A stretch of DNA of 46,037 nt, from IMG/VR virus record IMGVR_UViG_3300045988_153867; one strand, 5' to 3'. Source of the DNA: a virus. The position numbers and the translations under genes are program-made. The notes beneath the pieces were generated by a model. It saw nothing but the letters and a program-made list of their open reading frames with translations, made no database searches and was not told the origin of the DNA. Positions 3,887 to 26,505 of the stretch are shown piece after piece (positions within the stretch are counted from its first letter, which is position 1; every line of letters begins with the position of its first letter).

Positions 3887-4161
3887 ACATACTAAAGATA
3901 GAAAGAGCAATAGCTTTATTAAAACCAATCGTTTGGAAAATGCCTGTGAATAAGAAAAGAGAGGCTTATATAACTTTATTGACAGCTGCTCAAAAGCAAC
4001 TACCACAAGAAGTAAATTTGGTAGTCGAAGAGCATTTTATACCAAACTGTCCTTTCCCACAACAAATACCTAAAGGCTGGGCATGTCCTGTATGCGGACG
4101 TGAGGTAGATGATGATGCTCACTACTGCAAATACTGCGGTCAAGCTATATGTGATGATTAA
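3883..4161 (+). CDS. Hypothetical protein with a C-terminal zinc ribbon
   Basis: ATGA overlap with the upstream ORF. CPVCG...CKYCG motifs are present. Confidence 0.6.
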   Translation: MNILKIERAIALLKPIVWKMPVNKKREAYITLLTAAQKQLPQEVNLVVEEHFIPNCPFPQQIPKGWACPVCGREVDDDAHYCKYCGQAICDD

Positions 4162-4172
4162 GGAGTGAAGAC

Positions 4173-4337
4173 ATGAATTATCCTGATCTAATAAAATGGA
4201 TATTTGAATTTGTATATGAACATTGGATATTAACGTTTTTGTTTATATTAGTTTTAAGAAGGTTTAGTATTTTTACAATAAATCTATCAGATAAGAAGGG
4301 CGATACAAATGTTATTAACAATAGAGAGCAAGTTTAA
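4173..4337 (+). CDS. Small hydrophobic protein, 54 aa
   Basis: ATG follows AAGGAG. A TM-like stretch WILTFLFILVL is present. It overlaps the next ORF by 29 nt. Confidence 0.3.
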   Translation: MNYPDLIKWIFEFVYEHWILTFLFILVLRRFSIFTINLSDKKGDTNVINNREQV

Positions 4338-4587
4338 TATAGGGGATAATGTGCATGTGCCTAAGGGAGAATGTAAAGTACTTGGTGTCAAACTAGATTC
4401 TAAAGGTATCTTATATTTGCTTGAAAGTGCAGACGGTACGAGAGAATGGGTGCAAGAATATTGGGTTGTTGAGGGCGAACAAGAACATAAACACGAAGAG
4501 TTTAAGGAGGCTATTTTGAACCAACTCGTAGAAGACAGCATAAATCCTTTTGGAGCATTATTTAGGCGATTAAAAAAGAAAAGCTAG
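4309..4587 (+). CDS. Hypothetical protein
   Basis: ORF track frame. Confidence 0.5.
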   Translation: MLLTIESKFNIGDNVHVPKGECKVLGVKLDSKGILYLLESADGTREWVQEYWVVEGEQEHKHEEFKEAILNQLVEDSINPFGALFRRLKKKS

Positions 4588-5362: not shown

Positions 5363-5435
5363 GCCCGTGTAGCTCAGATGGCAAGAGCGATTGACTTTTA
5401 ATCAGTGGTCGCAGGTTCGAGCCCTGCCACGGGTA
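5363..5435 (+). tRNA. tRNA-Lys (anticodon UUU)
   Basis: Cloverleaf folded by hand. Acceptor stem is GCCCGTG/CACGGGT and the D arm is GCTC..GAGC. The anticodon loop is CTTTTAA and the T arm is GCAGG-TTCGAGC-CCTGC. Confidence 0.9.
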
Positions 5436-5590
5436 CGGCATAGATGGGGAACACCTATCCACGCTTAAAGGTGCGTGTGTTGTTTGGGTAATCCGGCGAC
5501 TGCCAGTCCTGCCGTTGGGGTGATACAGCGGCATATTTAATTGAGGTACTAACATGTTAAGCAGTAAATAATAGTGGAGAGTGCTTAAAA

Positions 5591-13206: not shown

Positions 13207-15975
13207 ATGGCTAGAGGAAGCGGACCGAATCCTTTTTATGTACTGCAGCCTGCATTTACTGCAGGTGAGATATCTAATGCTGTTGCTAATCGTGTCGATT
13301 TGGATAAATATCAATATGCTCTTTTGACTGCTGAAAATTGTTATATTCGTCCTTATGGTCCTGCGTATCGTCGTAGTGGTACGGTTTACTGCATTGCTAC
13401 CAAATATGCTGATAAAAGGTGTATTCTGGCTGGATTTAATTTTACTGATGATATTAATTATCTGCTTGAAATAGGCGATCAGTATATTCGGATCCACAGA
13501 AATGGGAAGTATTTAGGGATAGAAATAGTAACGCCTTTTACAGAAGCTGATTTGGAAAAATTGAGATTTGCTCAGTCAGCAGATGTTATATATATCACAA
13601 GCGGGAATTATCCGGTAAAACAACTGGCTAGATATAGCGAAGATGATTGGAAGTTTGGCGATTTTGAAATTACTCATGCTTATTTTGAAGATGAGGTAAC
13701 TATGGATTTGGTTGAGAGTACTGTTTACACGGCGCCTGGCAATTATACGTATACAGTCCCGAAAGATGGCCGTTATACAATAGAAGTAGCTGGTGGCGGT
13801 GGTGGCGGCAGTGGTGTAGCCAGAAAAGCAAGTGATAAGCAAAGTTCAGGTGGCACAGGTGGTCGTGGTGGTTTTTACAGTTTTGAGATGGATTTGACCG
13901 AAGGTGATAGTTTCCCTGTAACTGTGGGAGCTGGTGGCAAAGGTGGTGCTGTGCATTATGGAGCTGGTTACGGTAATGCTGGTGGCAACGGTGGAAGCAG
14001 CAGCGCTTTTGGTTGGGTAGCTCAAGGTGGTGGTGGGGCTACTGCAGCGTATTCGGAAGAACATGGTGCAAAGAACGGAAGCGACGGAACCAACTATGGT
14101 AATGGTGGCATTGGTGGGAAGAAAGGTGTTGCTTATGATGAAAATAACCTTTCCGGAACAGATGGCTCTAACGGCTGGGTTACTATAGCGTTTCAGGATA
14201 ATCCAAAGGTTACGCCGTCCAGCACAACAGGTACTGTAACCATTACAAGCAATAGACCGATTTTCAACGAAGGGCTGATTGATGGTAACATCAGGCTGAC
14301 GCACGAGGTAGAATCTTTTTCAGTAGAATTGAATTTGAAGGACAATGCTACTGGAACTACTGGCGCTGTTGTAGTGGGAGAAAGTTGGAAAGTTATTTCT
14401 GGCGGTTCCTGGACCGGAAGTTTCCAAATACAAAAAAGTGAAGATGGTACTACATGGAAAGAATACCGTAAATATTCAAGCACAAACAATTTTAATCCTA
14501 CTGAAAGCGGGACAGTAACAGACACTACCTATTTGAGAATAGAGGCGTCTATAACGAGCGGTGATTTGACTGTAACACTAACCGCTCTTCCTTATACTAA
14601 AGATGGTACAGCAAAAATAATTAGCTATATCGATGAATATAATATTAAGGCAATGGTAAATGAGCCGTTTGGGTCTACCGAAAGTACAACTACTTATGCT
14701 TTCGGAGCATGGGACAGCAATTTCGGCTATCCAAAAACAGTATGCTTTTTTCAAGACAGACTTTGTTTTGGTGGAAATAACAAAAGGCCTTATATGGTTT
14801 GGATGTCAAAAAGCGGGGATTATCCTAATTTTGGCGTGGAGAAGGTTAGTGGGACGATAACGGACGACAGTGCTATTGCTGCATCATTTATCAGTAGAAA
14901 ACAGTTTGATATTTTACATTTGATCCCATCTGTTGACCTTCTTGTCTTAACACAAGGGAACGAATGGATCGTTTCTGGAAGCGAGGTTGTAACACCAACA
15001 AATATCACACCCAAAATGCAAACTACGAGAGGCTGCAGTAATTGCGAGCCACTTACAATCGGCAATAGGATTGTATTTGTACAGGGACGTGGTTCGACAG
15101 TTCGTGATATGGGCTACAGCTTTGAAACAGACAGTTATGGTGGCATGGAATTAACAATACTGGCAGGGCAAATTATAAAGGGGCTTTCTATTACCGATTC
15201 AGCTTATAAGCAGGAGCCGGACAGTATAATTTATTTCGTGCGTAGTGATGGCACGATCGCTTGCCTGTCTTATATAAGAGAGCAGGAAGTATACGCATGG
15301 TCCAGGATCATTACTGACGGCGAATTTGAAGCTGTCGTGAATATTCCAGAAGGGGACGAAGATAGTATCTACGCTGTTGTAAAACGTGTGGTAAATGGAG
15401 AGACGGTTCGCTATATTGAACGCTTTGATAATAATTATGATGGTGACAATCCGAATGATTATGTAATGCTGGACTGTGCTAAAAAATACGATATGGAGGA
15501 AGCAACAGATACTTTAACAGGACTGGGGCATCTTGCCGGTAATACAATTTCTGTGTTGGGAGATGGACGTGTATTGAGAAATTATACGGTGCAGGATGAT
15601 GGCACTGTTAAATTGCCGATACAAATTAAACGTGCAGTTGCAGGATTACCATATACTATGAATATCGAGCTTCCAAACATTGAAATCCAGTTACAGGACG
15701 GAACTATGCAGGGAAGATTTAAACAGGTCTCAGAAGCGATTTTACGAGTTGAGAATACTCTTGGCGGTGAAGTTGGCACCGAATTTGGGAATCAGGATGC
15801 TATCGCCTATGATGAATTTAGTATGACTGAAAATATGAAATTGTATAGTGGAGATAAAAAGGCTACTCCGCCGACAGGAGGGTTTGATCGAGACGGAAGG
15901 CTGTGCATTACAAGCAGTGAGCCGTACCCATTTAATTTATTAAGCGTAACAAGGCAGGTGACATTTGGTGGCTAA
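13207..15975 (+). CDS. Tail tubular protein B-like nozzle protein with an inserted glycine-rich domain
   Basis: 922 aa. Gene order parallels T7 gp11-gp12. A Gly-rich block lies at about 13735..14195. Confidence 0.55.
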   Translation: MARGSGPNPFYVLQPAFTAGEISNAVANRVDLDKYQYALLTAENCYIRPYGPAYRRSGTVYCIATKYADKRCILAGFNFTDDINYLLEIGDQYIRIHRNGKYLGIEIVTPFTEADLEKLRFAQSADVIYITSGNYPVKQLARYSEDDWKFGDFEITHAYFEDEVTMDLVESTVYTAPGNYTYTVPKDGRYTIEVAGGGGGGSGVARKASDKQSSGGTGGRGGFYSFEMDLTEGDSFPVTVGAGGKGGAVHYGAGYGNAGGNGGSSSAFGWVAQGGGGATAAYSEEHGAKNGSDGTNYGNGGIGGKKGVAYDENNLSGTDGSNGWVTIAFQDNPKVTPSSTTGTVTITSNRPIFNEGLIDGNIRLTHEVESFSVELNLKDNATGTTGAVVVGESWKVISGGSWTGSFQIQKSEDGTTWKEYRKYSSTNNFNPTESGTVTDTTYLRIEASITSGDLTVTLTALPYTKDGTAKIISYIDEYNIKAMVNEPFGSTESTTTYAFGAWDSNFGYPKTVCFFQDRLCFGGNNKRPYMVWMSKSGDYPNFGVEKVSGTITDDSAIAASFISRKQFDILHLIPSVDLLVLTQGNEWIVSGSEVVTPTNITPKMQTTRGCSNCEPLTIGNRIVFVQGRGSTVRDMGYSFETDSYGGMELTILAGQIIKGLSITDSAYKQEPDSIIYFVRSDGTIACLSYIREQEVYAWSRIITDGEFEAVVNIPEGDEDSIYAVVKRVVNGETVRYIERFDNNYDGDNPNDYVMLDCAKKYDMEEATDTLTGLGHLAGNTISVLGDGRVLRNYTVQDDGTVKLPIQIKRAVAGLPYTMNIELPNIEIQLQDGTMQGRFKQVSEAILRVENTLGGEVGTEFGNQDAIAYDEFSMTENMKLYSGDKKATPPTGGFDRDGRLCITSSEPYPFNLLSVTRQVTFGG

Positions 15976-16453
15976 AAAATACAAGGTTGAAGTAGCGGAT
16001 GTCGATAATGCAATAGAGATTGCTGCAGCGTTGCTGAAAGATTTGCGGGACAGCGACAGGCAGGAATTAGAAGCATACGATGAAGATGCAGTAATGCTGA
16101 TTGCCGGTAGTATTGAAAATGCAGAACATTGTTATATTTACAGGGATATGAAAGATAATATTCTTTGTATTGTAGGGTTAGCTGCTGTTTCCAGTGTTCC
16201 GGGCAAAGAAATTTGGATGTTGGGGACAAAAAGGATAAGCTGTTTCAAAAAAGAGCTACTTATTTGCGCTGCAAGGCTTCTAATCAAGAAATGGGTGCAA
16301 GAATATGGACGGCTTTATAATTATGTTTATAGTGGCAATTCTGCTTCGATACGGTGGCTTGCTAGACTTGGGGCAATGTTCCTGGCACCGATAAAAATAA
16401 AAAAGAACGGAAAAGAGTTTCTTCCGTTCGTAATTGAGGAGGGGAGTATATAA
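15965..16453 (+). CDS. Internal virion protein A-like (gp13-like, GNAT-like fold?)
   Basis: 162 aa. Position fits, and the C-terminal NSASIRWLARLGAMF motif is recalled from gp13-like proteins. Confidence 0.45.
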   Translation: MVAKKYKVEVADVDNAIEIAAALLKDLRDSDRQELEAYDEDAVMLIAGSIENAEHCYIYRDMKDNILCIVGLAAVSSVPGKEIWMLGTKRISCFKKELLICAARLLIKKWVQEYGRLYNYVYSGNSASIRWLARLGAMFLAPIKIKKNGKEFLPFVIEEGSI

Positions 16454-17103
16454 TGTGTATAGATCCAATGACATTAGGTATAGGGCTTACAGCATTACAG
16501 GGTGTATCTGCCATCTCGTCTACAAATCAGCAGGCTAAGGCACAGCAGGCGTATTATGATGCGCAGGCACAGGCTGCAGAACAAAATGCTGATATTCAGG
16601 CAAAGCGTGGTGAACAGATAGCAGAGCAATATGCTTATGAACAACAAAAGCTCAATGATAGACGCCGTATTGCGGCAGGTCAGCAGGCGGCCGCATTTGG
16701 TGCTGCCGGTATCAGCGGGGATATGGGTACAGCTCTTGACCTTAGTGATTCGAGCTTTAGAGCATATAGAAAAGACAGTAATCAGCTTTTAGGTAATCAG
16801 CGTAACGACCAGTGGAGCAACTATCTTGGTGTAGTGAATTATAAAAATCAGGCTAATGCGGCAAGAGCTTCTGCTTACAATGTTAAACAGCAGGCTAAGC
16901 AACAGAATATGGGTACTATTCTTGGAACGGCTGCGAACATTTTCAGCGTATATAACAATTTTGGCGGGAGCGGGAAAACTGGCGGAGCAGCCCAATCTTA
17001 TGGCAGAGGTGGTAATGGTTATGGTTGGGGTAACAGCGGTAATCTGACCTTTGGAAATTATAATCCCAAAAAATATGGGCTATACTATGGTAGTTTATTT
17101 TAA
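16453..17103 (+). CDS. Internal virion (core) protein, gp14-like
   Basis: N-terminal hydrophobic segment followed by the Q/A-rich stretch QQAKAQQAYYDAQAQAAEQNADIQAKRGEQIAEQYA, typical of gp14-family core proteins. Confidence 0.6.
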   Translation: MCIDPMTLGIGLTALQGVSAISSTNQQAKAQQAYYDAQAQAAEQNADIQAKRGEQIAEQYAYEQQKLNDRRRIAAGQQAAAFGAAGISGDMGTALDLSDSSFRAYRKDSNQLLGNQRNDQWSNYLGVVNYKNQANAARASAYNVKQQAKQQNMGTILGTAANIFSVYNNFGGSGKTGGAAQSYGRGGNGYGWGNSGNLTFGNYNPKKYGLYYGSLF

Positions 17104-17104
17104 C

Positions 17105-17133
17105 TTGCATTGATATGAAATGTATTATATAAT
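17105..17133 (+). promoter_or_regulatory. Near-consensus promoter P1 (TTGCAT-17-TATAAT)
   Basis: Hexamers and spacer counted by hand. It is followed by the conserved leader AAAyGAAAAGAGATAGCTTGA. Confidence 0.6.
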
Positions 17134-17139
17134 AAACGA

Positions 17140-17238
17140 AAAGAGATAGCTTGACGGGTAGTAGCGTCGGCTCATCTTGTAACAAATAGTACTTGAAAAC
17201 GAGCCCGCCAGCTAACCCTTGTGCAGGGCTTATTTTCT
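17140..17238 (+). ncRNA. Candidate small RNA 1 transcribed from P1
   Basis: Promoter plus a weak hairpin (AGCCC..GGGCT or CCCT..AGGG) followed by TATTTTCTT. No ORF with an RBS is present. Confidence 0.3.
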
Positions 17239-17248
17239 TGCTATTTTA

Positions 17249-17311
17249 CAGACTGTATCGGTATTAATTCGGACTGTATCGGGATTGAGTCAGACTGTGC
17301 TTGCATTAGTA
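17249..17311 (+). repeat. Three imperfect 21-bp tandem repeats (CAGACTGTATCGGTATTAATT-like) abutting and overlapping the P2 -35
   Basis: Units at 17249-17269, 17270-17290 and 17291-17311, aligned by eye. Confidence 0.7.
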
Positions 17312-17329
17312 CGGAATGTATTATATAAT
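17301..17329 (+). promoter_or_regulatory. Near-consensus promoter P2 (TTGCAT-17-TATAAT), a paralog of P1
   Basis: The block AATGTATTATATAATAAAyGAAAAGAGATAGCTTGA is shared with P1. Confidence 0.6.
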
Positions 17330-17335
17330 AAATGA

Positions 17336-17428
17336 AAAGAGATAGCTTGATATTGGCATGTCAGCTCTCTCCTGAAAAGTATAGACTTGAAGAAAAGGCC
17401 GACTACACCATTAGTTGGTCTTTTGTCT
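17336..17428 (+). ncRNA. Candidate small RNA 2 (putative antitoxin RNA), convergent with the toxin gene
   Basis: P2 promoter plus terminator GGCCGACT-loop-AGTTGGTC-TTTTGTCTT at 17397..17428. Confidence 0.4.
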
Positions 17429-17441
17429 TATGTAAGTAAAA

Positions 17442-17519
17442 TTACTTGCGATTAGACAAAATGATAGCAACGAGTGTACCAAAGGTTACCATCAAAGATA
17501 AGGCTTCGTATACAGTCAT
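17442..17519 (-). CDS. 25-aa hydrophobic peptide, Hol-Tox-like type I toxin candidate (MTVYEALSLMVTFGTLVAIILSNRK)
   Basis: Strong RBS GGGAGGTGA lies 4 nt upstream of the ATG. A single TM segment ends in basic residues. The YEALSLM..FG motif is recalled from the putative holin-like toxin family. Confidence 0.6.
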   Translation of the reverse strand: MTVYEALSLMVTFGTLVAIILSNRK

Positions 17520-17574
17520 GCTATCACCTCCCTTGACAGGGAGAGAATCCGACTATCAAACTATCTCGGACAAC

Positions 17575-17603
17575 ATTATAACACACCTTTAAGCGCTTAA
17601 CAA
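17575..17603 (-). promoter_or_regulatory. Promoter for the toxin mRNA (TTGTTA-17-TGtTATAAT, extended -10)
   Basis: Read on the reverse complement. The 5' UTR contains CTCCCT..AGGGAG pairing that would sequester the RBS. Confidence 0.55.
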
Positions 17604-17621
17604 TTTGTTAAAGCGCTTTTT
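17591..17621 (+). terminator. Hairpin plus T-run upstream of the gp15-like gene
   Basis: AAGCGCTTAAC..GTTAAAGCGCTT stem followed by TTTTC. The left arm resembles the terminators at 6138 and 29773. Confidence 0.5.
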
Positions 17622-17648
17622 CTATACCCCAAAGGAGGTACAAACAGA

Positions 17649-19949
17649 ATGAAATTCAGTCAATATGCAGAGCAAGTAAATCCAAATACAATACAGGGGC
17701 AAGTACAAAGACCAGGCGATTTAAACAGCTACGGCGGTAATGGCGCTGGGTATGAGGCTATTGGTAGAGGATTGGGGGCTGCAAATGAAGCTTATAATAA
17801 ATTTATCGAAAGTGTTGAGCAATCTAAAGTTGTAGAAGCTGATGCTGAATATGATAAACGTATTTCTAATTTATTATATAACCCGAAAGATGGTTTAATG
17901 CATGCTCAATATTCTAATGCAGAGGGGATAGCGGGGAAATTTCAGAATGAAGAACAAAAAATAAGACAGGAGATAATGGAGAAATATAAATTCAGTTTGA
18001 ATAAGACTTCTAGTGTTTTTAATAATTGGGCTAATAACGATGCACAGAAAAGATTTATGTTAGTTGGCCAACATGAATATAAACAGGTTGAGGCTAACAA
18101 AGACTTGGCATTATCAAATAATATTGATGAAAATTTTAATTTTGCAATGCAAAATTATGATAATGATGAGTTAATAAAATCAGAATTTGATAAAAGTATA
18201 ACTATTTTAATGGATAGATATGCGGGGCAAGATCCTGAATTTATAAAAAGTGAAGCAAAAAGATTATTATCACCTAAAATGGCCGCACTTGTTGGAACTG
18301 CTTTAGCGAATGATGATATTGACAGAGCTGGCGCGATTATTGAAAAATGGGGTGCCTTTATGCCTGCGGAAACAAGACTTTCTTATTCTAGAATTGCGCA
18401 TGCCAGAAAAGAAAGAGAGTACGAATATTATACAGGCTTAAATATATACGAACGTTTTGGAGATGATTATGAGTCTGCCAGGAAGTATATTTATGGTGAT
18501 AACTTTGGATATGATGGTGAAGCCGCTGTGCGGAGTGCAAGAGAAGATATTGGGAATAATTATGGTACTAACACATGTACGATAAGAAGTAATAATTGGA
18601 TTGCTGCAGGTGGAGGCAAGGAAGGAAATGCTTGGGCTCCTACACAATTTGAAGATATGAAAGGCGCAGGATTGATTTTTACCGACAAGTCTCAATTACG
18701 AAGTGGTGATATTGTTTATTGGCATTACGGAGAAGACCCAAATGATGTTGATCATGTTGGGATATATGATGCAAAGACTGGAATGGTAATACAAAGTGGA
18801 GATCATGGAGTTGCAGAAATTCCGCTTGATTATGCAAATATTTCTGGGTTCGCAAGACCTAGAGGAAGAAATGTATCCATAGAAGATAAAGAAAAAGCAT
18901 GGAATGCCTATGTTACTCAAGCTCATAATAACAATGCAATAAAAAATAACCATAAGAAAAGAATTATTGATAGCGTACAACAAGAAATGTGGAACAAATT
19001 TAAGACTGGCGTTATTGATCCAAAGGAATTTCAAAGTCTTGTATACAGTGTTTCTGGAGGCGATGCAGATATTGAAATGAACCTTTTAAAGTTCGGTGAT
19101 GATTTGATTGGAATACAAGGCAAAGCTGCTGCCGCTGTATCTAATAGCAGCATTTATAAAGAAATCAAAGATGCTATTACAAATAGTACTGTAACGCCAG
19201 CAGAAGCCGTATCTTTAATCAATCAAAACGCAACAGTCTTAGGCGAAGCTGATAGAAGCAGATTGCTTGCTTTTGCTAGAAATCAAGATCCGAGAAATAA
19301 GGATATCGATAAACAGTTAGCTACTATAATCAATGAAGCGTTTTCTGATCCGGTGGAAAGAGGAGAAGCTCAAATTTTCTTGGATAATAAATTAGAAATT
19401 GTAACTGACCCTGATGCAAGATACACGGAAGGCTATGATGTATTGTATGGTACGAAGGATAGACCAGGGATTTTGCAGAATAAAGCCATTTTCAAAAATT
19501 TTAATAGCAAACAACGTGAATGGGGTTCCTTAAAGAGCAGTCTATCTCCTAAGCTTTATCCTTATATAGATGCATATCAGATTCAGAACGGAAATAATAT
19601 TGATTTGGGGCAGGCAAAAACAATCTTTGAATCCATAAATCCGAACGATAAATACCAGATTTCGGCGCTTCAATATGCGACTGTTTATAATAGTCCAATG
19701 GATATTCAAGAGCTCAATAAACAAATTGCGGCTATGGCAGTTCGTGATGGTGTAGATGCTGCTCCACATTTGCTGGATATTCCGCAGCAGAGTGAAACAG
19801 TAGTACAGCAAAATGAAAGCACTCCATGGTTTAGCGATTGGGGAGCAAGTGAGCGTACTGGTTTAGCGGCAATGAGTTTTAGTGATACTCTGGAAGCTAT
19901 AAAACAGCGTCACTTAGCAGCATTAAGAGGAGAAATTAACGAGGAGTGA
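17649..19949 (+). CDS. Internal virion protein (gp15-like position) with an NlpC/P60- or CHAP-like peptidoglycan hydrolase domain
   Basis: 766 aa. A candidate catalytic Cys (GTNTCTIRSNNW) and His (VDHVGIYD) are followed by GDHGVAEIPLD. Confidence 0.7.
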   Translation: MKFSQYAEQVNPNTIQGQVQRPGDLNSYGGNGAGYEAIGRGLGAANEAYNKFIESVEQSKVVEADAEYDKRISNLLYNPKDGLMHAQYSNAEGIAGKFQNEEQKIRQEIMEKYKFSLNKTSSVFNNWANNDAQKRFMLVGQHEYKQVEANKDLALSNNIDENFNFAMQNYDNDELIKSEFDKSITILMDRYAGQDPEFIKSEAKRLLSPKMAALVGTALANDDIDRAGAIIEKWGAFMPAETRLSYSRIAHARKEREYEYYTGLNIYERFGDDYESARKYIYGDNFGYDGEAAVRSAREDIGNNYGTNTCTIRSNNWIAAGGGKEGNAWAPTQFEDMKGAGLIFTDKSQLRSGDIVYWHYGEDPNDVDHVGIYDAKTGMVIQSGDHGVAEIPLDYANISGFARPRGRNVSIEDKEKAWNAYVTQAHNNNAIKNNHKKRIIDSVQQEMWNKFKTGVIDPKEFQSLVYSVSGGDADIEMNLLKFGDDLIGIQGKAAAAVSNSSIYKEIKDAITNSTVTPAEAVSLINQNATVLGEADRSRLLAFARNQDPRNKDIDKQLATIINEAFSDPVERGEAQIFLDNKLEIVTDPDARYTEGYDVLYGTKDRPGILQNKAIFKNFNSKQREWGSLKSSLSPKLYPYIDAYQIQNGNNIDLGQAKTIFESINPNDKYQISALQYATVYNSPMDIQELNKQIAAMAVRDGVDAAPHLLDIPQQSETVVQQNESTPWFSDWGASERTGLAAMSFSDTLEAIKQRHLAALRGEINEE

Positions 19950-19953
19950 TAAT

Positions 19954-22900
19954 ATGGCAAGGTCTATATTGTATGATGTAGCAGCAGCAGGAAAGTTTAT
20001 ACCAGACGACTTAAAGACTAAAGCGTTACAAGGGGCTAATGCAAATAATATATCGCTTCAAATGGCCGCTCGTAATCCCGATTATTATTTACCTAAAAAC
20101 TTTGATTATGACTGGAATAAATATGAGAAGATAGCACCAAGAACAGCAGAGGCGTTAAAAGACCCGGTGCTTATGAGCATTGCCGGCACTAAAGCTGCAG
20201 AATTTTGGGGCGAACAAGAGAATAACTGGAAAAGCATTACAGCACTGAAAAATGGCTTTAAGAATGTTGCTCGTAGTGGTTATGGTGCAGTTGCGCTCTT
20301 GGCTGATTTAGGAACAGACAAAAAAGATGTTGAGCTGACCACGGAATCTAAAGTGTTTAGTGCAGATACGATAGGGCGGCTTTTGTATGCTGTTGGCGGT
20401 GAAAAATTAAAAACTATTGGCACAGAAGCTAAACGCATTGGTGGCAGTGAGATATTTCAGCCAGAAGAAGTAAAGGCAGAGACTGCAGCAGGGCAGTTTT
20501 ATTACGATTTACTGCAGAATGCACCACAATTAGCGGCACAGGTCGGCGTAGCAATTAGCACTGGCGGTTGGAGTGCGGCGGCTTTTATGGGTAGCCAGAT
20601 TGCAGGCGGTCAATATTTAGACCTTACTGAAGCTGGTGTATCTAATGACAGAGCCAGAGCTGCGGCATCGTTAAATGCTGTTGCGCAGTCTGCTCTTGAA
20701 AAAGTTGGTTTGGGCAAAGTTATGGGAGCAGGAGCAAGAGCCGCTAAAATAGCAAATATGGGTGGGAAGGCTAAAGAGGTTTTTAAAACTGCATTGACAG
20801 AAGGTATTACTGAATGGATTCAAGAATACCCGGATGCGGCTGCTGAAATATGGGCTAAAAATGAGAATCTTTCTACTCAGGAACAAATACTTAAATTTTA
20901 TCAGGAGTTTGGTGAGATTACTAAAAGAGGCGCTTATTCTGGTGCTATAGGAGCAGTATTCGGTGGGCTTGGTGGCTCTGTTAGTGTTGCTGTAGATCGT
21001 AATGCTAACCGTGCGATTCAGGAACAGGCAGTGCGTACTGCAGAAGCAATGAAAAACAGTAAGGATGTAGATATTACTGCCAGTAAATTAGTGTTGAATC
21101 AAACCACAGAAGAAAAGGCTTATATAGATGCTGAAACCCTTTTTACATACGTGCAGGAAAATCCTAATCTGGATGTAAAAGATACTTTCGGGATAGAGGC
21201 TTCTGAATTGCAGGCAGCTGCCGTTCGCGGTGAGGATATTGAAATGCCAATGGGTACGTATTGCGCAGCAGAGGCTCAAAATCCTGGCTTTTTTCAGGCT
21301 GTAAGTAATAGCGTAGCATTTGAGCAGGGCGGATATACAGAAGAACGTGCAAGAAATAAAAAAGCTCTCCAAAGCGCTTATAAAAAAGCGTTGGAGAACG
21401 ACGAAGAATTTAGAACTACAGTTGATACTTTTAGAAATGAATTGACTGAAGCGGGACTAAATCAAAAAGAAACTGGTGATGTCCTGGCTATTTTAACAAG
21501 TCGTGCAATGATCGCTAATCCTGATGATCCTATGCAATATTTCAGAGATCACCCTGTAAGCTTCAAGCGTGTAGTCAGCACTCCTGGCGGTCGGTATATG
21601 CAAACTAAAAGTGCTAACGAAAAATTGCTTGAGGATGAAAATAATTTTGCCGGCATTGTAGATGAGTATACTGCAGGAAAAATAAACGATACCAAAACCT
21701 ATAATGTTATGACGACACCGCTTGCATTGGGACTTGCAGGCGGTAAAATTTTGCCTGTAACTATTGATGGCAGCAAAATAAAACATATATTTGATGGACA
21801 TTCTGACGGGATGACACCAGAACTGTTGAAACAAATTCCTCGTGCAATGGCCGATCCAATGATGATATTGGATTCTTATGCCGGTCGTAAGATTGTAGTG
21901 CTTGATTTAAAGGATAAGCAGGGGTCTACTATTATTGTTCCTTTAGAACTTGACGTAGAACGTAGTTGGTATAAAGTTAATGCGATTGCGAGTGCTTATG
22001 GTAAAGGTGGAGAAAGTGGTACAGATTATAACTGGTTTATAGAACACAATCTAAAAAAAGGTAGAGTATCATATGTAAATAAAGAAAAGACTGCCAAGTG
22101 GCTACCTTCTCCTAGCAGCGATTCCGCTAGCAGAATAACCGACCTTAACAGTCTTCTTAATAATAGTATACCAGATGAAAATGCGCTACGCAAGAGACGT
22201 GAAGAAATGCAGGGATACTACCAGACCGCTTTTCACGGAAGCCCGCATAAATTTGAAAAGTTTGATTTGGGTGCTATTGGGACAGGAACAGGCATACAAG
22301 CCCATGGATGGGGCTTGTATTTTGCTTTCAGCAAAAATACCGCTAAGCGGTACAGGGATAGATTGAAGGGAAGTACCGACGAAGGCTCTTTAGTTGAGGC
22401 TGATATCCCTGAAGATGCTGTATTGCTACATGAAAATAAAACTATCGAAAAGCAACCACCTAAAGTACGTGCGATTATTGAAGCTGAATTAGAAAGAATT
22501 GGCGGTAGTGCAAATGACGGTAAAAGCTTTTACAGGGAAATAAAATTTGAAATGCAGAGGCTGGGAGCAGAAAATCCTGCCAGAGCGGCCTCTGAACATT
22601 TAAATAAATTAGGGATCAAAGGCATTAGATATGTTGGAGAAAGAGATGGAGAAGCGTATGTAATTTTTGATGATCAGGCAATAAAGATAATCAACAGTTA
22701 CAATCAGAAAGTCAACAACGATAAAAAAGGCGCTATTACCTGGGACGCAGAAGGTAAAGCAATTATTAACCTGTTTGAAGGTGCCGATATGAGCACGGTA
22801 ATTCATGAAGCTGTAGGTCATTACTTCATTGAAAATCTTATGCGTGAGGGAGCACTTCCTAATGCTACAGAACAGATGAAAAAAGATCGTCAGACTATGC

Positions 22901-25900
22901 TTGATTATGCTGGTGTCAATAAAGACTGGGATAGCTTGTCACAGGAAGAAAAAACAGCTGCGCATGAACGTTGGGCAGAAGCTGCCGAGACTTATATGAT
23001 GGAAGGGAAGGCTCCGTCAAAAGAATTGCAACCTGTCTTTAATAGGTTTAAAAAATGGTTGCTGGCTATTTATGATGCAGTCTTTTCAGATAGGCGTAAC
23101 AAAAATGCTGTGCCTATCAACGATGAGGTAAGACAAGTGTTCGACCGTATGTTGGCAAGTGAAGATCAAATTGCAGAGATGGAACGTATTGACGGTTATT
23201 TTTCTGCGTTGCCAGATGTTGTATTAGATGCACTTTCTGAACCACGTAAGCAAATGTTACGCAATTTTGCTGCTAAAGCTCACGATAAGGCAGTGCAGAT
23301 GTTAACAAAAGAAAGTCTTGTTAATTTCAATCAGGAGCGTAAAGACCGAATTCAAAAATATCGTGAAGATGTAGAGCCGCAGGTCAAAGAAGCGATTGCA
23401 AAACAGCCGTTATATATGGCTTCGGAGCAGATACTTGATATTGCATCTGATTTGAAAACAGCTAAAGGCGTAGCTAATAGATATTTAGAAGGCAATTTTG
23501 ATGAAAGTAAAATGGCAACTTTTGATATGATTGCTGAAGCTAATGGTTTTACTTCTGGTGACGAGCTGGCAAAAACTATTATGTCTGAACCGTCTTTTAC
23601 TGGTGCTGTTAATAGGCATATTGATGAAATGGTACAGGATGCTTTCCCTGATATTTATAAAGAGCGTGGGCTTGCTGAGGAGGCTGCGCGTGACGCTATG
23701 TATAATGACGAGAGCGGTCTTTTGATAAACACTGAAGCTCAGCTTATTGAGGATAAAGCGCAGGGCTTATTAAAAGGACAGCGTGATGCTGAAACACTTA
23801 GAAAGCTTGCTGTTGCACGTAGACAAACAGCTAAAATCCAAGCGCAGATGGACCTGCAGAATAGAGTAAAATTAAAGGAGGCTTTAAATACTCAAAAGTA
23901 TATTACTGCAGAAAGAAATGCTGCAGCAAAAGCTGCTGTAGCCTTGGAAAATGATGATTATTCTACTGCGGTCCGATATAAAAATGTCCAGGCATTTAAT
24001 CACGCTTGTGTTGTTGAAAGTGTAAGATTGCGCAATCAGTATGTTAAGTGGCAGAACTATTTCAGAAAGCAGGCAAAAGCTAAAAAGGAAACTTGGGGTA
24101 ATGAAAGAAACTTCATCCAAGCCGCAGCAATTATGGAAAGATTTGGCTATAAACGTAAAGATTATTCTGGTTTTGAGAAAACAGAAACTTTATCAGAATA
24201 TCTGAATGATATGGACGATCTTTATGATAATGTTGCAGTTGCCGATTGGATAATGGATGAGGATGTTAGCATTACAAACCCCCGGGAACGCATGACTGCA
24301 AGCCAACTTGAAGATGTAGTAAATGCACTTAAAAATATCAAAGCTATTGCTAAGCAGGAAATGAATATCAATGCCTTACAGAAAGGCGTTACCTATGCTG
24401 AATTTAAAGTTGAAGCACAGGAAACACTTAATAAACTGAAAACTATCTGGAATCCGCAGGTTGGCGTAACACAGCAGCCTACAGTAATGGAGAAGCTAAA
24501 AGCGTCTTTACGTAGTACGGACAATCTTTTTGAAATGATGGACGATTGGCAGTATGGATTTTTCAGCAAACATTTTGGCGCCGCTATTCGTGAAGCAGCC
24601 GATAATGAAACAAGAAAAATTTTAGAATATGAAGAAAAAACAGCGCAGGCTTACAGGGAGTGGCTGCCGGATAAAGCTGCAGAAAAGGCGGCCGATTATC
24701 AGGAGAAATATGACGAGTTAGGTACTTCCGTAGATAAGCATGTTTTAGTAAAAATGCTTATGAATTTAGGTAACGAGAGCAGTGCCAGAGTATTGTGCAG
24801 CACTAGGCCAGTAGGTTTTGAAAATTCTGCCTTGTGGGTAGATGGCGATATCATGCAGACTAAAATCAATTTGCTTGACTTCTTAGGGCACAATCTTACT
24901 GAAGCGGATATAAAATATGCACAGGCTAAGATAGACATTGCAGAGCTGTACTGGTCTGAAATGGAAGCACTTGAAACTCGTTGGACAGGATTTAGTCCTA
25001 AAAAAGTTGAAGCGTCTCCTGTAGAGTTGACGCTAGCAGACGGCAAGACTGTTGTTATGCGTGGCGGTTATTTCCCACTTATGCGTGACGGTGATACTGG
25101 CTCTAAACATGCTGGTCAAGAAGTTATTTCTGATACTGACCCCAGACAAGGACGCAATATTAGAACGATGAGTACCAGAAGAGGACATTTGAAAGAGCGT
25201 GTTAAGGCTAAATATCCTGTTAATCTAAAGCGTGGAGCAGAGTTTAATGTTGCTATGGATGCAATACATGATCTGTGTTTCCGTGAAGTTATGGGCGATT
25301 TCCGCAAAATTATGAACGATCAGGAAATGTATACACTGATAAAAGAAAAGTTAGGCCTGGCCGATTTCGCTGCCTTTAAAGAATATCTTGAACGTGCGGC
25401 AAATCCTCAAGGTACTAACAGCGGTTCTGTTGGTGAAAGTTGGATGGGCAGTGTTGCTAACTGGCTTAGAGCCCGTACTGTAAATGCTGCTATTATGCTT
25501 AATCTTAAAACTGCCGTTCAGAACTTGGGTAACCCTTTGCTTTATGGGAATGCTGTAGATGGTTTTGGATATAGTGATGTCGTTGCTGCTGTTAGTAATT
25601 ACAGTATGAATATGCAGCTTGCAGAAGGTTATAAATCGGCTAAGGAATTTGTTTATAGTAAATCCCCTTGGATGAAAGAAAGGTCTGTGCTTCCTGATAT
25701 TTCCCTGCGGGATATGAAAGAAATGGAAAGACTGAACCCTGTAGAAAAGAAAGCTGTTGAATTTGGCACAAGGTTACTGGTCGCTACTGATAATCTTTCG
25801 GCTATTCCGGTATGGATGCAGGCGTATGGCAAGAAAATCAGGGCTGGTGCAGGCGAAGCTGAAGCTGTGGATTTTGCCAATACGGTTATTAGACGTACAC

Positions 25901-26505
25901 TTGGCAGCAGCAGAGTTACGGAGGTTGCACCGCTTTTACGTGGTGGTCCTATGCTTAAACTGTTTACTACTTTCCAGGGCTTCTTTAACACACAGTATAA
26001 CCAATGGGCAAGAGAGTATAATATCTTCTTGAAAGAAAAAGACATAATGCGTCTTACTTCGTTTGTGGGGGCCAAGTTTATAATGTTTGCTTTTATAAAC
26101 TTGATGCTATCAGCCGAAGATCCATTTGAAGAAGATAAGGACGAATATAAAAAAATATCAAAAGAATTACTTACTTACCCTATGAGCTTAGCCGGACCAG
26201 TTGGGCAGGTTGGTAATGCTATCTGGAGCAGAGCTTTAGGTATGCAGACCTACGGCTATAGAATGACTGCAGTGCAAGGCACGATAGAGCAAATGGAACG
26301 TGCGGCCGGTAAGGTGCAAAAGGTTTGGCAGAAAAAAGCAGATTATGATGAATTGATTGAACCTACTGCGACTTTTGTCGGAACAGCATTAGGCGTGCCT
26401 GCACAGTTAAATAAATTATTCTTTAACGGATATGATATCTTGTTCAATGGTATGGAACCGGAAGTTGGCGACATCTTTAGGCGCCGGCCGAAAAAAGAAC
26501 GGTAA
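19954..26505 (+). CDS. Giant internal virion/ejection protein (gp16-like position) of polyvalent-protein type
   Basis: 2183 aa single ORF. It carries a MuF_C/PBECR-like segment, an FHGSPHKFEKFD...GWGLYFA module, an HEAVGH module and a C-terminal hydrophobic segment. Confidence 0.8.
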   Translation: MARSILYDVAAAGKFIPDDLKTKALQGANANNISLQMAARNPDYYLPKNFDYDWNKYEKIAPRTAEALKDPVLMSIAGTKAAEFWGEQENNWKSITALKNGFKNVARSGYGAVALLADLGTDKKDVELTTESKVFSADTIGRLLYAVGGEKLKTIGTEAKRIGGSEIFQPEEVKAETAAGQFYYDLLQNAPQLAAQVGVAISTGGWSAAAFMGSQIAGGQYLDLTEAGVSNDRARAAASLNAVAQSALEKVGLGKVMGAGARAAKIANMGGKAKEVFKTALTEGITEWIQEYPDAAAEIWAKNENLSTQEQILKFYQEFGEITKRGAYSGAIGAVFGGLGGSVSVAVDRNANRAIQEQAVRTAEAMKNSKDVDITASKLVLNQTTEEKAYIDAETLFTYVQENPNLDVKDTFGIEASELQAAAVRGEDIEMPMGTYCAAEAQNPGFFQAVSNSVAFEQGGYTEERARNKKALQSAYKKALENDEEFRTTVDTFRNELTEAGLNQKETGDVLAILTSRAMIANPDDPMQYFRDHPVSFKRVVSTPGGRYMQTKSANEKLLEDENNFAGIVDEYTAGKINDTKTYNVMTTPLALGLAGGKILPVTIDGSKIKHIFDGHSDGMTPELLKQIPRAMADPMMILDSYAGRKIVVLDLKDKQGSTIIVPLELDVERSWYKVNAIASAYGKGGESGTDYNWFIEHNLKKGRVSYVNKEKTAKWLPSPSSDSASRITDLNSLLNNSIPDENALRKRREEMQGYYQTAFHGSPHKFEKFDLGAIGTGTGIQAHGWGLYFAFSKNTAKRYRDRLKGSTDEGSLVEADIPEDAVLLHENKTIEKQPPKVRAIIEAELERIGGSANDGKSFYREIKFEMQRLGAENPARAASEHLNKLGIKGIRYVGERDGEAYVIFDDQAIKIINSYNQKVNNDKKGAITWDAEGKAIINLFEGADMSTVIHEAVGHYFIENLMREGALPNATEQMKKDRQTMLDYAGVNKDWDSLSQEEKTAAHERWAEAAETYMMEGKAPSKELQPVFNRFKKWLLAIYDAVFSDRRNKNAVPINDEVRQVFDRMLASEDQIAEMERIDGYFSALPDVVLDALSEPRKQMLRNFAAKAHDKAVQMLTKESLVNFNQERKDRIQKYREDVEPQVKEAIAKQPLYMASEQILDIASDLKTAKGVANRYLEGNFDESKMATFDMIAEANGFTSGDELAKTIMSEPSFTGAVNRHIDEMVQDAFPDIYKERGLAEEAARDAMYNDESGLLINTEAQLIEDKAQGLLKGQRDAETLRKLAVARRQTAKIQAQMDLQNRVKLKEALNTQKYITAERNAAAKAAVALENDDYSTAVRYKNVQAFNHACVVESVRLRNQYVKWQNYFRKQAKAKKETWGNERNFIQAAAIMERFGYKRKDYSGFEKTETLSEYLNDMDDLYDNVAVADWIMDEDVSITNPRERMTASQLEDVVNALKNIKAIAKQEMNINALQKGVTYAEFKVEAQETLNKLKTIWNPQVGVTQQPTVMEKLKASLRSTDNLFEMMDDWQYGFFSKHFGAAIREAADNETRKILEYEEKTAQAYREWLPDKAAEKAADYQEKYDELGTSVDKHVLVKMLMNLGNESSARVLCSTRPVGFENSALWVDGDIMQTKINLLDFLGHNLTEADIKYAQAKIDIAELYWSEMEALETRWTGFSPKKVEASPVELTLADGKTVVMRGGYFPLMRDGDTGSKHAGQEVISDTDPRQGRNIRTMSTRRGHLKERVKAKYPVNLKRGAEFNVAMDAIHDLCFREVMGDFRKIMNDQEMYTLIKEKLGLADFAAFKEYLERAANPQGTNSGSVGESWMGSVANWLRARTVNAAIMLNLKTAVQNLGNPLLYGNAVDGFGYSDVVAAVSNYSMNMQLAEGYKSAKEFVYSKSPWMKERSVLPDISLRDMKEMERLNPVEKKAVEFGTRLLVATDNLSAIPVWMQAYGKKIRAGAGEAEAVDFANTVIRRTLGSSRVTEVAPLLRGGPMLKLFTTFQGFFNTQYNQWAREYNIFLKEKDIMRLTSFVGAKFIMFAFINLMLSAEDPFEEDKDEYKKISKELLTYPMSLAGPVGQVGNAIWSRALGMQTYGYRMTAVQGTIEQMERAAGKVQKVWQKKADYDELIEPTATFVGTALGVPAQLNKLFFNGYDILFNGMEPEVGDIFRRRPKKER

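What the first reader, a model, noticed from the sequence alone, without database searches (positions are those of the whole stretch)
17104..17648. Type I toxin-antitoxin-like locus with three paralogous promoter-leader units, wedged between internal-virion genes
The 545-bp gap between the gp14-like and gp15-like genes is not empty. On the minus strand there is a 25-codon ORF, MTVYEALSLMVTFGTLVAIILSNRK (17442..17519). It has a near-perfect RBS (GGGAGGTGA) and an extended -10 promoter (TTGTTA-17-TGtTATAAT). Its 5' UTR carries CTCCCT that can pair with the AGGGAG of its own RBS. The peptide resembles the small Hol-Tox (putative holin-like toxin) family (YEALSLM..FG, one TM segment, basic tail).

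On the plus strand there are two near-consensus promoters (TTGCAT-17-TATAAT at 17105 and 17301). Each sits within a conserved block of about 36 bp. Each drives a short ORF-less transcript. The second ends at a terminator (17397..17428) just short of the toxin stop, so the two transcripts are convergent.

All three transcripts begin with the same leader element, GAGATAG(C/T)TTGA. The P2 transcript also carries CTCTCTCCTG, echoing the toxin UTR element CTCTCCCTG. The small RNAs therefore look like paralogs of the toxin leader rather than simple antisense copies.

Three 21-bp tandem repeats (17249..17311) abut the P2 -35. A toxin module with its own strong promoters inside a late virion operon is unusual. 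It could act in prophage maintenance, abortive infection or lysis timing.
Basis: partly seen in the sequence, partly recalled or inferred. Interest (0 to 1): 0.7.

Follow-up and report, generated by a model that had tools for sequence, protein, structure and literature searches.

The report
Prophage type I toxin-antitoxin cassette
The gap between two virion genes of a gut-bacterium prophage holds a small membrane-toxin gene with a convergent antisense small RNA, plus a spare antitoxin RNA gene left over from a different cassette type; it is a new example of a well-known kind of module.

Summary
The 25-aa peptide passes the Pfam Hol_Tox threshold. It is 59% identical to B. subtilis BsrG over its first 17 residues. 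RefSeq already names it "putative holin-like toxin" in Phascolarctobacterium faecium.

The window is a temperate T7-like prophage of that gut species. Unit P2 is an ORF-less sRNA gene of about 95 nt, convergent with the toxin gene. The two RNAs share one terminator, so their last 45 nt or so are perfectly complementary. That is the bsrG/SR4 and par layout.

About 150 related contigs carry a cassette at this same gp14-gp15 site. There are four toxin/sRNA types (A-D), and toxin polymorphisms are 11 synonymous to 3 nonsynonymous.

Unit P1 is not a second regulator of this toxin. It is identical to the antitoxin gene of cassette D, whose toxin was deleted at codon 23, so it is an orphan antitoxin.

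Each sRNA's 5' hairpin is a same-sense copy of its own toxin's 5' end. I found no cognate-specific pairing that explains this.

Verdict: a new member of a known kind. No expression or toxicity data exist.

The parts
16453..17103 (+). gp14-like internal virion protein gene (upstream boundary of the cassette site)
   Evidence: Pfam T7_gp14 45.9 bits, PHROG 418; stop codon at 17101-17103.
17105..17133 (+). Promoter P1 (TTGCAT-17-TATAAT) of the orphan sRNA
   Evidence: Exact pattern, 2 matches in the window against 0.07 expected. Part of the 51-nt repeat shared with P2.
17140..17239 (+). Orphan antitoxin sRNA gene of cassette type D, about 100 nt. It has a 5' hairpin SL1 (17143-17178), a linker, and a terminator hairpin (17195-17237) followed by a U-tract. 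Transcript ends are predicted, not mapped.
   Evidence: Folds (terminator -16.2 kcal/mol, z -2.5). 100% identical to the sRNA gene that sits next to an intact toxin D in IMGVR_UViG_3300029777_000251. SL1 differs from type C by 1 compensatory and 3 wobble-compatible changes, none disruptive.
17241..17251 (-). Remnant of the deleted toxin D ORF: stop codon, K25, V24 and 2 nt of codon 23
   Evidence: CTATTTTACAG is shared with the intact D cassette. The sequences diverge immediately after it.
17249..17311 (.). Three 21-bp tandem repeats (C[A/G]GACTGT...). The third copy carries the P2 -35.
   Evidence: the repeat finder family D1. Present only in two-unit loci, between the orphan sRNA and the next promoter.
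17301..17329 (+). Promoter P2 of the cognate antitoxin sRNA (type A)
   Evidence: Across 19 type-A haplotypes the -35 and -10 are invariant, while the spacer and the stretch from -10 to +1 vary.
17336..17432 (+). Antitoxin sRNA A, about 95 nt, ORF-less. It has SL1 (17339-17371), a small SL2 (17377-17388), and a terminator (17393-17424) followed by a U-tract. Transcript ends are predicted.
   Evidence: Whole-RNA fold -30.1 kcal/mol, z -3.75. Terminator. SL1: 100% of cells paired across four leader types, with 2 pairs changed on both sides. The two SL1 polymorphisms both preserve pairing.
17388..17432 (.). Predicted overlap of the two convergent transcripts at the shared terminator. This is the perfectly complementary toxin mRNA / sRNA segment.
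   Evidence: RNAduplex gives a 40-nt perfect duplex at -71 kcal/mol for the cognate pair; types B and C give -96.5 and -73.6. The minus-strand hairpin of type A is weak (-7.6 kcal/mol, z -0.2), whereas B and C are strong on both strands.
17442..17519 (-). Toxin gene A: 25-aa single-helix peptide MTVYEALSLMVTFGTLVAIILSNRK
   Evidence: Pfam Hol_Tox 32.4 bits against a 23.3 cut-off. 10/17 identity to BsrG. RefSeq WP_367401126.1, 'putative holin-like toxin'. 11 synonymous against 3 nonsynonymous polymorphisms.
17520..17567 (-). Toxin mRNA 5' UTR. It starts with GAGATAG (predicted start about 17567) and contains the anti-RBS CTCCCT, a 4-nt loop, and the RBS GGGAGGTGA (17524-17532).
   Evidence: Folds. 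Invariant across 19 type-A haplotypes except for two singletons at or next to the hairpin loop. Sub-threshold Rfam BsrG match over 17442-17547.
17575..17603 (-). Toxin promoter: TTGTTA, 17 nt, TGtTATAAT (extended -10)
   Evidence: Promoter scan, 10 of 12 positions with TG. The -10 plus leader start is exact in 90 viral contigs.
17591..17621 (+). Plus-strand intrinsic terminator (T+) closing the cassette just before the gp15 RBS. The toxin -35 lies inside its 5' arm.
   Evidence: Fold -12 kcal/mol, z -5.1, followed by TTTTT. Present in nearly all related loci.
17649..19949 (+). gp15-like gene with an NlpC/P60-like segment (downstream boundary)
   Evidence: The NlpC/P60 hit is below the Pfam cut-off (21.1 against 23 bits).

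Best explanation
The gp14-gp15 gap of this temperate T7-like Phascolarctobacterium faecium prophage holds one complete type I toxin-antitoxin cassette of the BsrG/TxpA (Pfam Hol_Tox) class. It also holds an orphan antitoxin gene.

The toxin mRNA. It is about 180 nt, on the minus strand, with its own extended -10 promoter. It encodes a 25-aa membrane peptide. It is built to be poorly translated. Its RBS is locked in a 6-bp hairpin with an upstream CUCCCU. The stretch from the RBS to the start codon also pairs with codons 16-20.

The cognate antitoxin. This is the convergent, roughly 95-nt, ORF-less sRNA made from P2. Both RNAs end at one shared terminator, so their last 40-45 nt are perfectly complementary.

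Mechanism (inferred by analogy with bsrG/SR4 and par RNA I/RNA II). Contact starts between the complementary terminator loops. The resulting duplex is cut by RNase III and/or keeps the translation start closed. In a lysogen the toxin therefore stays silent. If the prophage and its short-lived sRNA are lost, the leftover toxin mRNA is translated and harms the cell.

Unit P1. It is the intact antitoxin gene of another cassette type (D), whose toxin was deleted.

What is shown and what is inferred:
- Shown from sequence: toxin family membership, the gene layout, the complementarity, the conservation and the purifying selection.
- Inferred: transcript ends, RNase III involvement, toxicity and the addiction role.
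For: Toxin identity:
- Hol_Tox score is above the Pfam cut-off.
- 59% identity to BsrG over residues 1-17 (BsrG sequence as printed in PMC4342826).
- RefSeq annotation in P. faecium.
- Sub-threshold Rfam BsrG matches in types A, B and C, covering the RBS hairpin and the start-codon/ORF helix.

Toxin mRNA structure:
- The helix between the translation start region and the ORF sits at the same position in types A, B and C with different sequences: -8:+59, -8:+57 and -8:+56. In type D only its start-codon part is kept.

sRNA gene:
- Promoter hexamers are invariant while the spacer varies.
- Terminators of unrelated sequence occupy the same place in all four types. They fold on both strands in types B and C.
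- The 5' hairpin is kept through compensatory changes.
- The only strong RNA-RNA complementarity is cognate-specific and lies at the terminator: -71, -96.5 and -73.6 kcal/mol.

Conservation and selection:
- Every relative examined carries a cassette at this site, including a divergent gp14/gp15 lineage.
- Toxin polymorphisms are 11 synonymous to 3 nonsynonymous, binomial P about 3e-5.

Host and precedent:
- Host is P. faecium.
- Prophage-borne type I modules with 3' overlap, and the dual action of SR4, are described in PMC3834814.
Against: - There is no transcript, toxicity or RNase data of any kind.
- The Rfam BsrG scores (18-25 bits) are far below the gathering score of 55.
- The minus-strand terminator hairpin of type A is weak (-7.6 kcal/mol, z -0.2). 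The toxin mRNA 3' end, and hence the exact overlap, is therefore uncertain in this window.
- The overlap (about 45 nt) is much shorter than in bsrG/SR4.
- The plus-strand -35 matches consensus at only 3 of 6 positions.
- The conserved same-sense homology between the sRNA 5' module and the toxin 5' end is not explained by this model.
Confidence: 0.75

Rival explanations
1. Same parts, different biological role. The peptide serves the phage's own cycle or defence (lysis timing as a holin-like protein, abortive infection, or exclusion of superinfecting phages) rather than post-segregational killing of cured cells.
For: - The family name is 'holin-like toxin'.
- The cassette sits inside the late virion operon. 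If late plus-strand transcription reads through the terminators, it would produce antisense RNA over the whole toxin gene, linking toxin expression to the lytic/lysogenic state (inference).
- Four alleles at one site suggest diversifying, conflict-type selection.
Against: - The gene is on the opposite strand from the late genes, with its own sigma-70-type promoter and a dedicated antisense sRNA. It is not in a lysis cassette next to an endolysin.
- The characterised homologs on prophages are suggested to serve prophage maintenance (PMC3834814).
- Nothing here distinguishes these roles experimentally.
Confidence: 0.2
2. The plus-strand units are not antitoxin genes. They are promoters with leader-attenuators that give gp15/gp16 some expression independent of the late promoter, and the toxin gene merely lies antisense in that leader.
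For: - P1 and P2 point the same way as gp15 and lie 300-550 nt upstream of it.
- The units are conserved together with the gp15 start region.
Against: - Each unit ends in a strong terminator, and a further terminator (T+, z -5.1) sits just before the gp15 RBS.
- The terminator sequence changes in step with the toxin type, not with the gp15 allele.
- Orphan units keep their terminators.
Confidence: 0.05
3. The locus is an inactive relic: a decaying toxin gene plus duplicated promoter debris with no present function.
For: - Unit P1 has lost its toxin, and the 21-bp repeats look like duplication debris.
- The type A minus-strand terminator is weak.
Against: - Toxin polymorphisms are 11 synonymous to 3 nonsynonymous, and all three amino-acid changes lie in the last 3 residues.
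- The RBS is unchanged in every cassette examined and the start codon is intact in all of them; the promoter hexamers are invariant across the type-A haplotypes apart from single variants, and over 150 contigs carry a cassette.
- Hairpin changes preserve structure.
- The orphan unit is identical to a functional-looking cognate gene elsewhere.
Confidence: 0.03

Closest known systems
bsrG/SR4 of the Bacillus subtilis SP-beta prophage (type I TA; Jahn & Brantl, PMC3834814)
   Same: - Same toxin family: Hol_Tox above the cut-off, and 10/17 identity to BsrG at the N-terminus.
- Prophage-borne.
- The antitoxin sRNA is convergent and complementary to the 3' end of the toxin mRNA.
- The RBS sits in a short hairpin, and the start region pairs with the ORF, as in the Rfam BsrG model.
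   Different: - The peptide is 25 aa rather than 38.
- The sRNA is about 95 nt rather than about 180, and the toxin mRNA about 180 nt rather than about 294.
- The overlap is about 45 nt, confined to a shared terminator. In bsrG/SR4 it is roughly 120 nt (stated for the B. methanolicus homolog in PMC4342826; 123 nt in B. subtilis from my memory).
- The Rfam BsrG score is well below threshold, and no Rfam antitoxin family matches the sRNA.
- The host is a diderm Negativicute, and the site is inside a virion operon.
fst/RNA II (par) of Enterococcus faecalis plasmid pAD1
   Same: - Convergent toxin mRNA and sRNA ending at one shared terminator. The bidirectional terminator of par is from my own knowledge.
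- The antitoxin has separate 5' and 3' modules. RNA II uses two separate paired regions, one at the 3' end and one at the 5' end (PMC3834814).
   Different: - The toxin here is Hol_Tox, not Fst.
- In par the 5' repeats are direct in the DNA, so the two RNAs are complementary there. Here they are inverted, so the two RNAs carry the same sequence (I1/I7).
- No cognate-specific 5' pairing was found here.
txpA/RatA and the wider TxpA family (Fozo et al. 2010, PMC2887945)
   Same: [quoted passage not shown]
- Loci are often tandemly duplicated in one intergenic region.
   Different: - Here the duplication has left an sRNA gene without a toxin, not a second toxin-sRNA pair.
- Four exchangeable alleles occupy one fixed phage site.
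Small Hol_Tox-like ORFs in Brevibacillus laterosporus phages (e.g. Osiris OSIRIS_17)
   Same: 60-65% identical peptides of 25-27 aa in temperate phages of Bacillota.
   Different: - They lie next to regulator genes, not between internal virion genes.
- No associated sRNA was examined.

Membership tests
Pfam Hol_Tox (PF16935) / BsrG-TxpA toxin family | Match to the family HMM at or above the gathering score | tested here: met
   32.4 bits against a 23.3 cut-off, E 8e-8, residues 1-18 on profile positions 1-18 of 34.
Pfam Hol_Tox (PF16935) / BsrG-TxpA toxin family | Short peptide with one hydrophobic helix and a polar or basic C-terminus | tested here: met
   25 aa; Kyte-Doolittle mean of 2.2 over residues 6-22; tail NRK. 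Types B, C and D have the same build.
Pfam Hol_Tox (PF16935) / BsrG-TxpA toxin family | Toxic when overexpressed | not testable with these tools
   Needs an expression experiment.
Rfam BsrG RNA (RF01412) | Covariance-model score at or above the gathering score (55 bits) | tested here: not met
   24.6 bits (type A, E 0.0015), 18.4 (type B), 24.5 (type C). The partial match covers the RBS hairpin and the start-codon/ORF helix only.
Type I toxin-antitoxin system (general) | Toxin ORF with its own promoter and RBS, and an adjacent non-coding RNA gene with promoter and terminator | tested here: met
   Promoters, RBS and terminators are present and conserved. The sRNA has no conserved ORF. These are predictions from sequence; expression was not tested.
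Type I toxin-antitoxin system (general) | Base-pairing region between the antitoxin RNA and the toxin mRNA | tested here: met
   A 40-nt perfect duplex at the shared terminator, specific to the cognate pair. This depends on both RNAs ending there; the type A minus-strand hairpin is weak.
Type I toxin-antitoxin system (general) | The sRNA neutralises the toxin in vivo | not testable with these tools
   Needs co-expression experiments.
par (fst/RNA II)-type architecture | Convergent genes sharing a bidirectional terminator | tested here: met
   The hairpins fold on both strands in types B and C (-24.3/-17.4 and -16.0/-14.5 kcal/mol). In type A the values are -18.1/-7.6.
par (fst/RNA II)-type architecture | Direct repeats at the 5' ends that make the two RNAs complementary there | tested here: not met
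   The 5' repeats are inverted in the DNA, so the RNA sequences are the same sense (I1/I7). Duplex predictions show no cognate-specific 5' pairing.
Phage holin of a lysis cassette | Co-transcribed with an endolysin in the late lysis module | tested here: not met
   The gene is on the opposite strand from the late genes, between gp14 and gp15, with its own promoter and an antisense sRNA.

The most novel reading that the evidence does not exclude
The gp14-gp15 site may be a polymorphic 'addiction / anti-addiction' locus of one prophage family.

What is observed:
- Four orthogonal toxin-sRNA pairs (A-D) swap at a single site.
- Phages carry at most one toxin but up to three antitoxin specificities. 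These take the form of orphan sRNA genes (as in this window) and composite sRNAs with two tandem 5' modules (B+C, A+C).

What the reading proposes:
- The extra modules neutralise the toxins of rival prophages.
- The sRNA's 5' hairpin, a same-sense copy of the cognate toxin's 5' end, is a second recognition or decoy domain. To my knowledge no such mechanism has been described for type I systems.
Probability: 0.2. Interest if true: 0.7.

Novelty: new member of a known kind. Interest (0 to 1): 0.42.

Why it matters
Type I toxin-antitoxin modules on prophages are well known in Bacillus and Clostridioides. This one extends the BsrG/TxpA class to a prevalent human-gut Negativicute and to a T7-like temperate phage.

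Its main value is as a natural experiment. Four matched toxin/sRNA pairs occupy the same site, alongside orphan and composite antitoxins. Together they form a ready-made panel for testing what sets the specificity of type I antitoxins, and whether spare antitoxins act in competition between prophages.

Such orthogonal RNA pairs are also the raw material for engineered RNA regulators (PMC12721322, seen).

As a single locus it is not surprising to a specialist.

Tried and rejected
1. Trans anti-RBS model (sRNA CUCUCUCCU on the toxin RBS). By manual pairing only about 6 bp form in types A and B, and type C has no counterpart (sequences). RNAduplex of the leader modules against toxin mRNAs gave no advantage to cognate pairs.

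2. Strand exchange (toxin 5' end pairing with the 3' arm of sRNA hairpin SL1). The cognate pair is best for A, B and C but the energies are weak (-10 to -17 kcal/mol). It is not best for D, and it must compete with the intramolecular hairpin at -13 to -14. Left as unexplained.

3. Long-range 5'-3' helix in the toxin mRNA, as in the Rfam BsrG outer helix. It is visible for types C and B, but is not significant against shuffles (z -0.8 to -1.5) and is not cognate-specific.

4. Invertible segment between the GAGATAG inverted repeats, which would swap the promoters. No inverted form appears among about 150 loci.

5. Named-phage relatives. There is no nucleotide match in 50,697 GenBank phage records.

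6. More cassette types. A metagenome scan with the sRNA promoter pattern found only types A, B and C. Type D turned up only in a targeted scan.

7. NCBIfam. The only hits were sub-threshold: ComI in all three peptides tested and PepG1 in type C.

8. Literature. No paper describes P. faecium prophages in detail; I ran no search on this locus itself.
Full report
**Context**

The window is a temperate T7-like podophage or prophage.
- It has a large terminase, a portal-like protein, a major head protein and tail proteins.
- It then has gp13-like (15965-16453), gp14-like (16453-17103), a gp15-like gene with a sub-threshold NlpC/P60 segment (17649-19949), and a 2183-aa gp16-like gene carrying a MuF_C domain and a sub-threshold ART-PolyVal match.
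- An integrase and a CI-like repressor lie at 38.5-40.2 kb.
- No GenBank phage record matches it at the nucleotide level.
- The exact gp14 protein occurs in over a thousand blocks of public human-gut assemblies, often on contigs of 200-300 kb, so it is an integrated prophage.
- The host is Phascolarctobacterium faecium. A conserved 20-mer of the cassette hits P. faecium DSM 14760 among 185,579 species genomes. RefSeq lists all four toxin peptides I looked up under that species.

**Checking the observation**

- The leader GAGATAGYTTGA occurs three times, against 0.03 expected.
- TTGCAT-N17-TATAAT occurs twice, against 0.07 expected.
- Two small corrections apply. The repeated promoter-leader block is 51 nt at 90% identity. 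The -35 TTGCAT matches TTGACA at only 3 of 6 positions, so the generic scan did not list it.
- Promoter function is better supported by polymorphism. Across 19 type-A haplotypes the -35 and -10 never vary, while the spacer and the stretch from -10 to +1 do.

**The toxin**

- MTVYEALSLMVTFGTLVAIILSNRK scores 32.4 bits on Pfam Hol_Tox, above the 23.3 cut-off.
- It aligns with B. subtilis BsrG at 10 of 17 identities from residue 1. The BsrG sequence is as printed in PMC4342826.
- Fozo et al. link 'holin-like toxin' annotations to the TxpA family, which has members as short as 27 aa (PMC2887945).
- The mRNA also resembles the Rfam BsrG model, but far below its threshold: 24.6, 18.4 and 24.5 bits for types A, B and C against 55.
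- Folding predicts two translation-silencing structures. One is a 6-bp hairpin of CUCCCU with the AGGGAG of the RBS. The other is a helix between the RBS/start-codon region and codons 16-20. That helix sits at the same position in types A, B and C with different sequences; type D keeps only its start-codon part.
- Within-type polymorphisms in the ORF are 11 synonymous to 3 nonsynonymous. All three amino-acid changes fall in the last three residues. About 76% of random changes would be nonsynonymous, giving P about 3e-5. The peptide is therefore under purifying selection.

**The cognate antitoxin**

- Unit P2 specifies an RNA of about 95 nt with no conserved ORF. It has a 5' hairpin (SL1), a linker and a strong terminator (-18.1 kcal/mol, z -4.2; whole RNA z -3.75).
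- The toxin stop codon lies 17 nt from this hairpin. The toxin transcript must therefore run into it.
- If both RNAs end at the shared hairpin they share a perfect 40-nt duplex at -71 kcal/mol. This is the only strong complementarity between them.
- In types B and C an unrelated hairpin sits in the same place and folds well on both strands. In type A the minus-strand version is weak (-7.6 kcal/mol, z -0.2), so the toxin 3' end in this window is less certain.
- The layout matches bsrG/SR4 (3' overlap, RNase III decay plus translational inhibition; PMC3834814). The shared terminator matches par of pAD1.

**Relatives: a cassette site with four types**

- All 40 loci found through gp14 carry a cassette in this gap. 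So do the 90 viral and 62 metagenome loci found through conserved promoter motifs.
- This includes a lineage with divergent gp14 and gp15.
- The outer parts are nearly invariant: the sRNA promoter, the toxin promoter, and a plus-strand terminator before gp15.
- The inner part comes in types A, B, C and D. Each type has a different toxin, a different terminator and a different sRNA 5' module. The toxins are:
  - A: MTVYEALSLMVTFGTLVAIILSNRK
  - B: (TTG start) STYEALSLMIAFSTLIAIVILGCK
  - C: MSIYQALSLMIAFGILVATIILAVK
  - D: MSVYQALSLMIAFGVLVATIILAVK
- Type C toxins are mostly paired with composite sRNAs that carry a B or an A 5' module ahead of the C module. The junctions fall at the repeated GAAAAGAGATAG.

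**Unit P1 is an orphan antitoxin**

- From its promoter to 17251 it is identical to the sRNA gene of a type D cassette that still has its toxin (contig IMGVR_UViG_3300029777_000251).
- The identity ends after CTATTTTACAG. That string is the stop codon, K25, V24 and two bases of codon 23 of toxin D.
- Beyond that point the window has the 21-bp repeats and then cassette A.
- The orphan keeps an intact promoter, SL1 and terminator.
- Similar two-unit loci exist with orphan B+C units.

**What remains unexplained**

- In each type the first 13-15 nt of the sRNA and of the toxin mRNA are the same sequence. With at most one mismatch, cognate pairs share 14-15 nt and non-cognate pairs 8-14 nt. By eye the similarity continues, with gaps, up to the anti-RBS element (sequences).
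- In the sRNA this segment forms the 5' arm of SL1, a hairpin kept across all four types. All 63 cells are paired, two pairs change on both sides, and slid controls pair at 32-56%.
- I found no pairing scheme that uses this homology and favours cognate pairs. I also found no sign of DNA inversion between the repeats.
- It may be a shared 5' stabilising hairpin, a second recognition or decoy domain, or a trace of how cassettes arise. Experiments are needed to decide.

**Verdict**

[quoted passage not shown] The peptide is already annotated in RefSeq. The sRNA genes, the four-allele cassette site, and the orphan and composite antitoxins are, as far as I could find, undescribed. All functional statements are inferences from sequence and from characterised homologs.

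Noticed in passing
window 17591-17621 (+): A strong intrinsic terminator (z -5.1) lies between the cassette and the gp15 RBS, in addition to the sRNA terminators. Late transcription from gp14 into gp15/gp16 would need read-through or antitermination. Such read-through would produce antisense RNA across the whole toxin gene.
   Followed up: partly
window 17249-17329; L201 promoter region: The 21-bp repeat motif CGGA(C/A)TGTAT also occurs directly upstream of the -35 and of the -10 in many sRNA promoters, 21 nt apart. The array could be phased binding sites for a regulator, or just duplicated promoter DNA.
   Followed up: partly
L010, L049, L078 and others: Most type C cassettes have composite sRNAs with two tandem 5' modules (B+C or A+C). 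These arose at least twice by joining at the GAAAAGAGATAG microhomology.
   Followed up: partly
window 17649-26505; L041-L046: Relatives with an identical gp14 carry different gp15 alleles: 766 aa with an NlpC/P60-like segment, or 637 aa with Peptidase_M15_3. Their gp16-like proteins range from 1218 to 2185 aa and carry MuF_C with weak or sub-threshold ART-PolyVal, or LPD38, domains. The ejection-protein region is mosaic.
   Followed up: no
window 5363-5436 (+): The phage encodes a tRNA-Lys (anticodon UUU).
   Followed up: no
KC595514/KC595515 (Jimmer), KC595518 (Davies), KC595517 (Abouo), about 10.4-11.4 kb: Several Brevibacillus laterosporus phages hold a 60-65% identical Hol_Tox-like small ORF with no annotated feature under the match. 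In Osiris the ORF is a 'hypothetical protein' next to regulator genes.
   Followed up: partly
window 17446-17590 (-); L012 4781-4914; L010 4832-4981: The Rfam model for Listeria sRNA rli28 gives sub-threshold matches (21-28 bits) over the toxin mRNAs of all three types. This hints that rli28 may itself be a mRNA for a toxin of this family.
   Followed up: no
L007, L009 (gp14 at 4001-4543): In two related contigs the gp14 reading frame ends after 180 codons instead of 216. This could be a frameshift or an assembly error.
   Followed up: no
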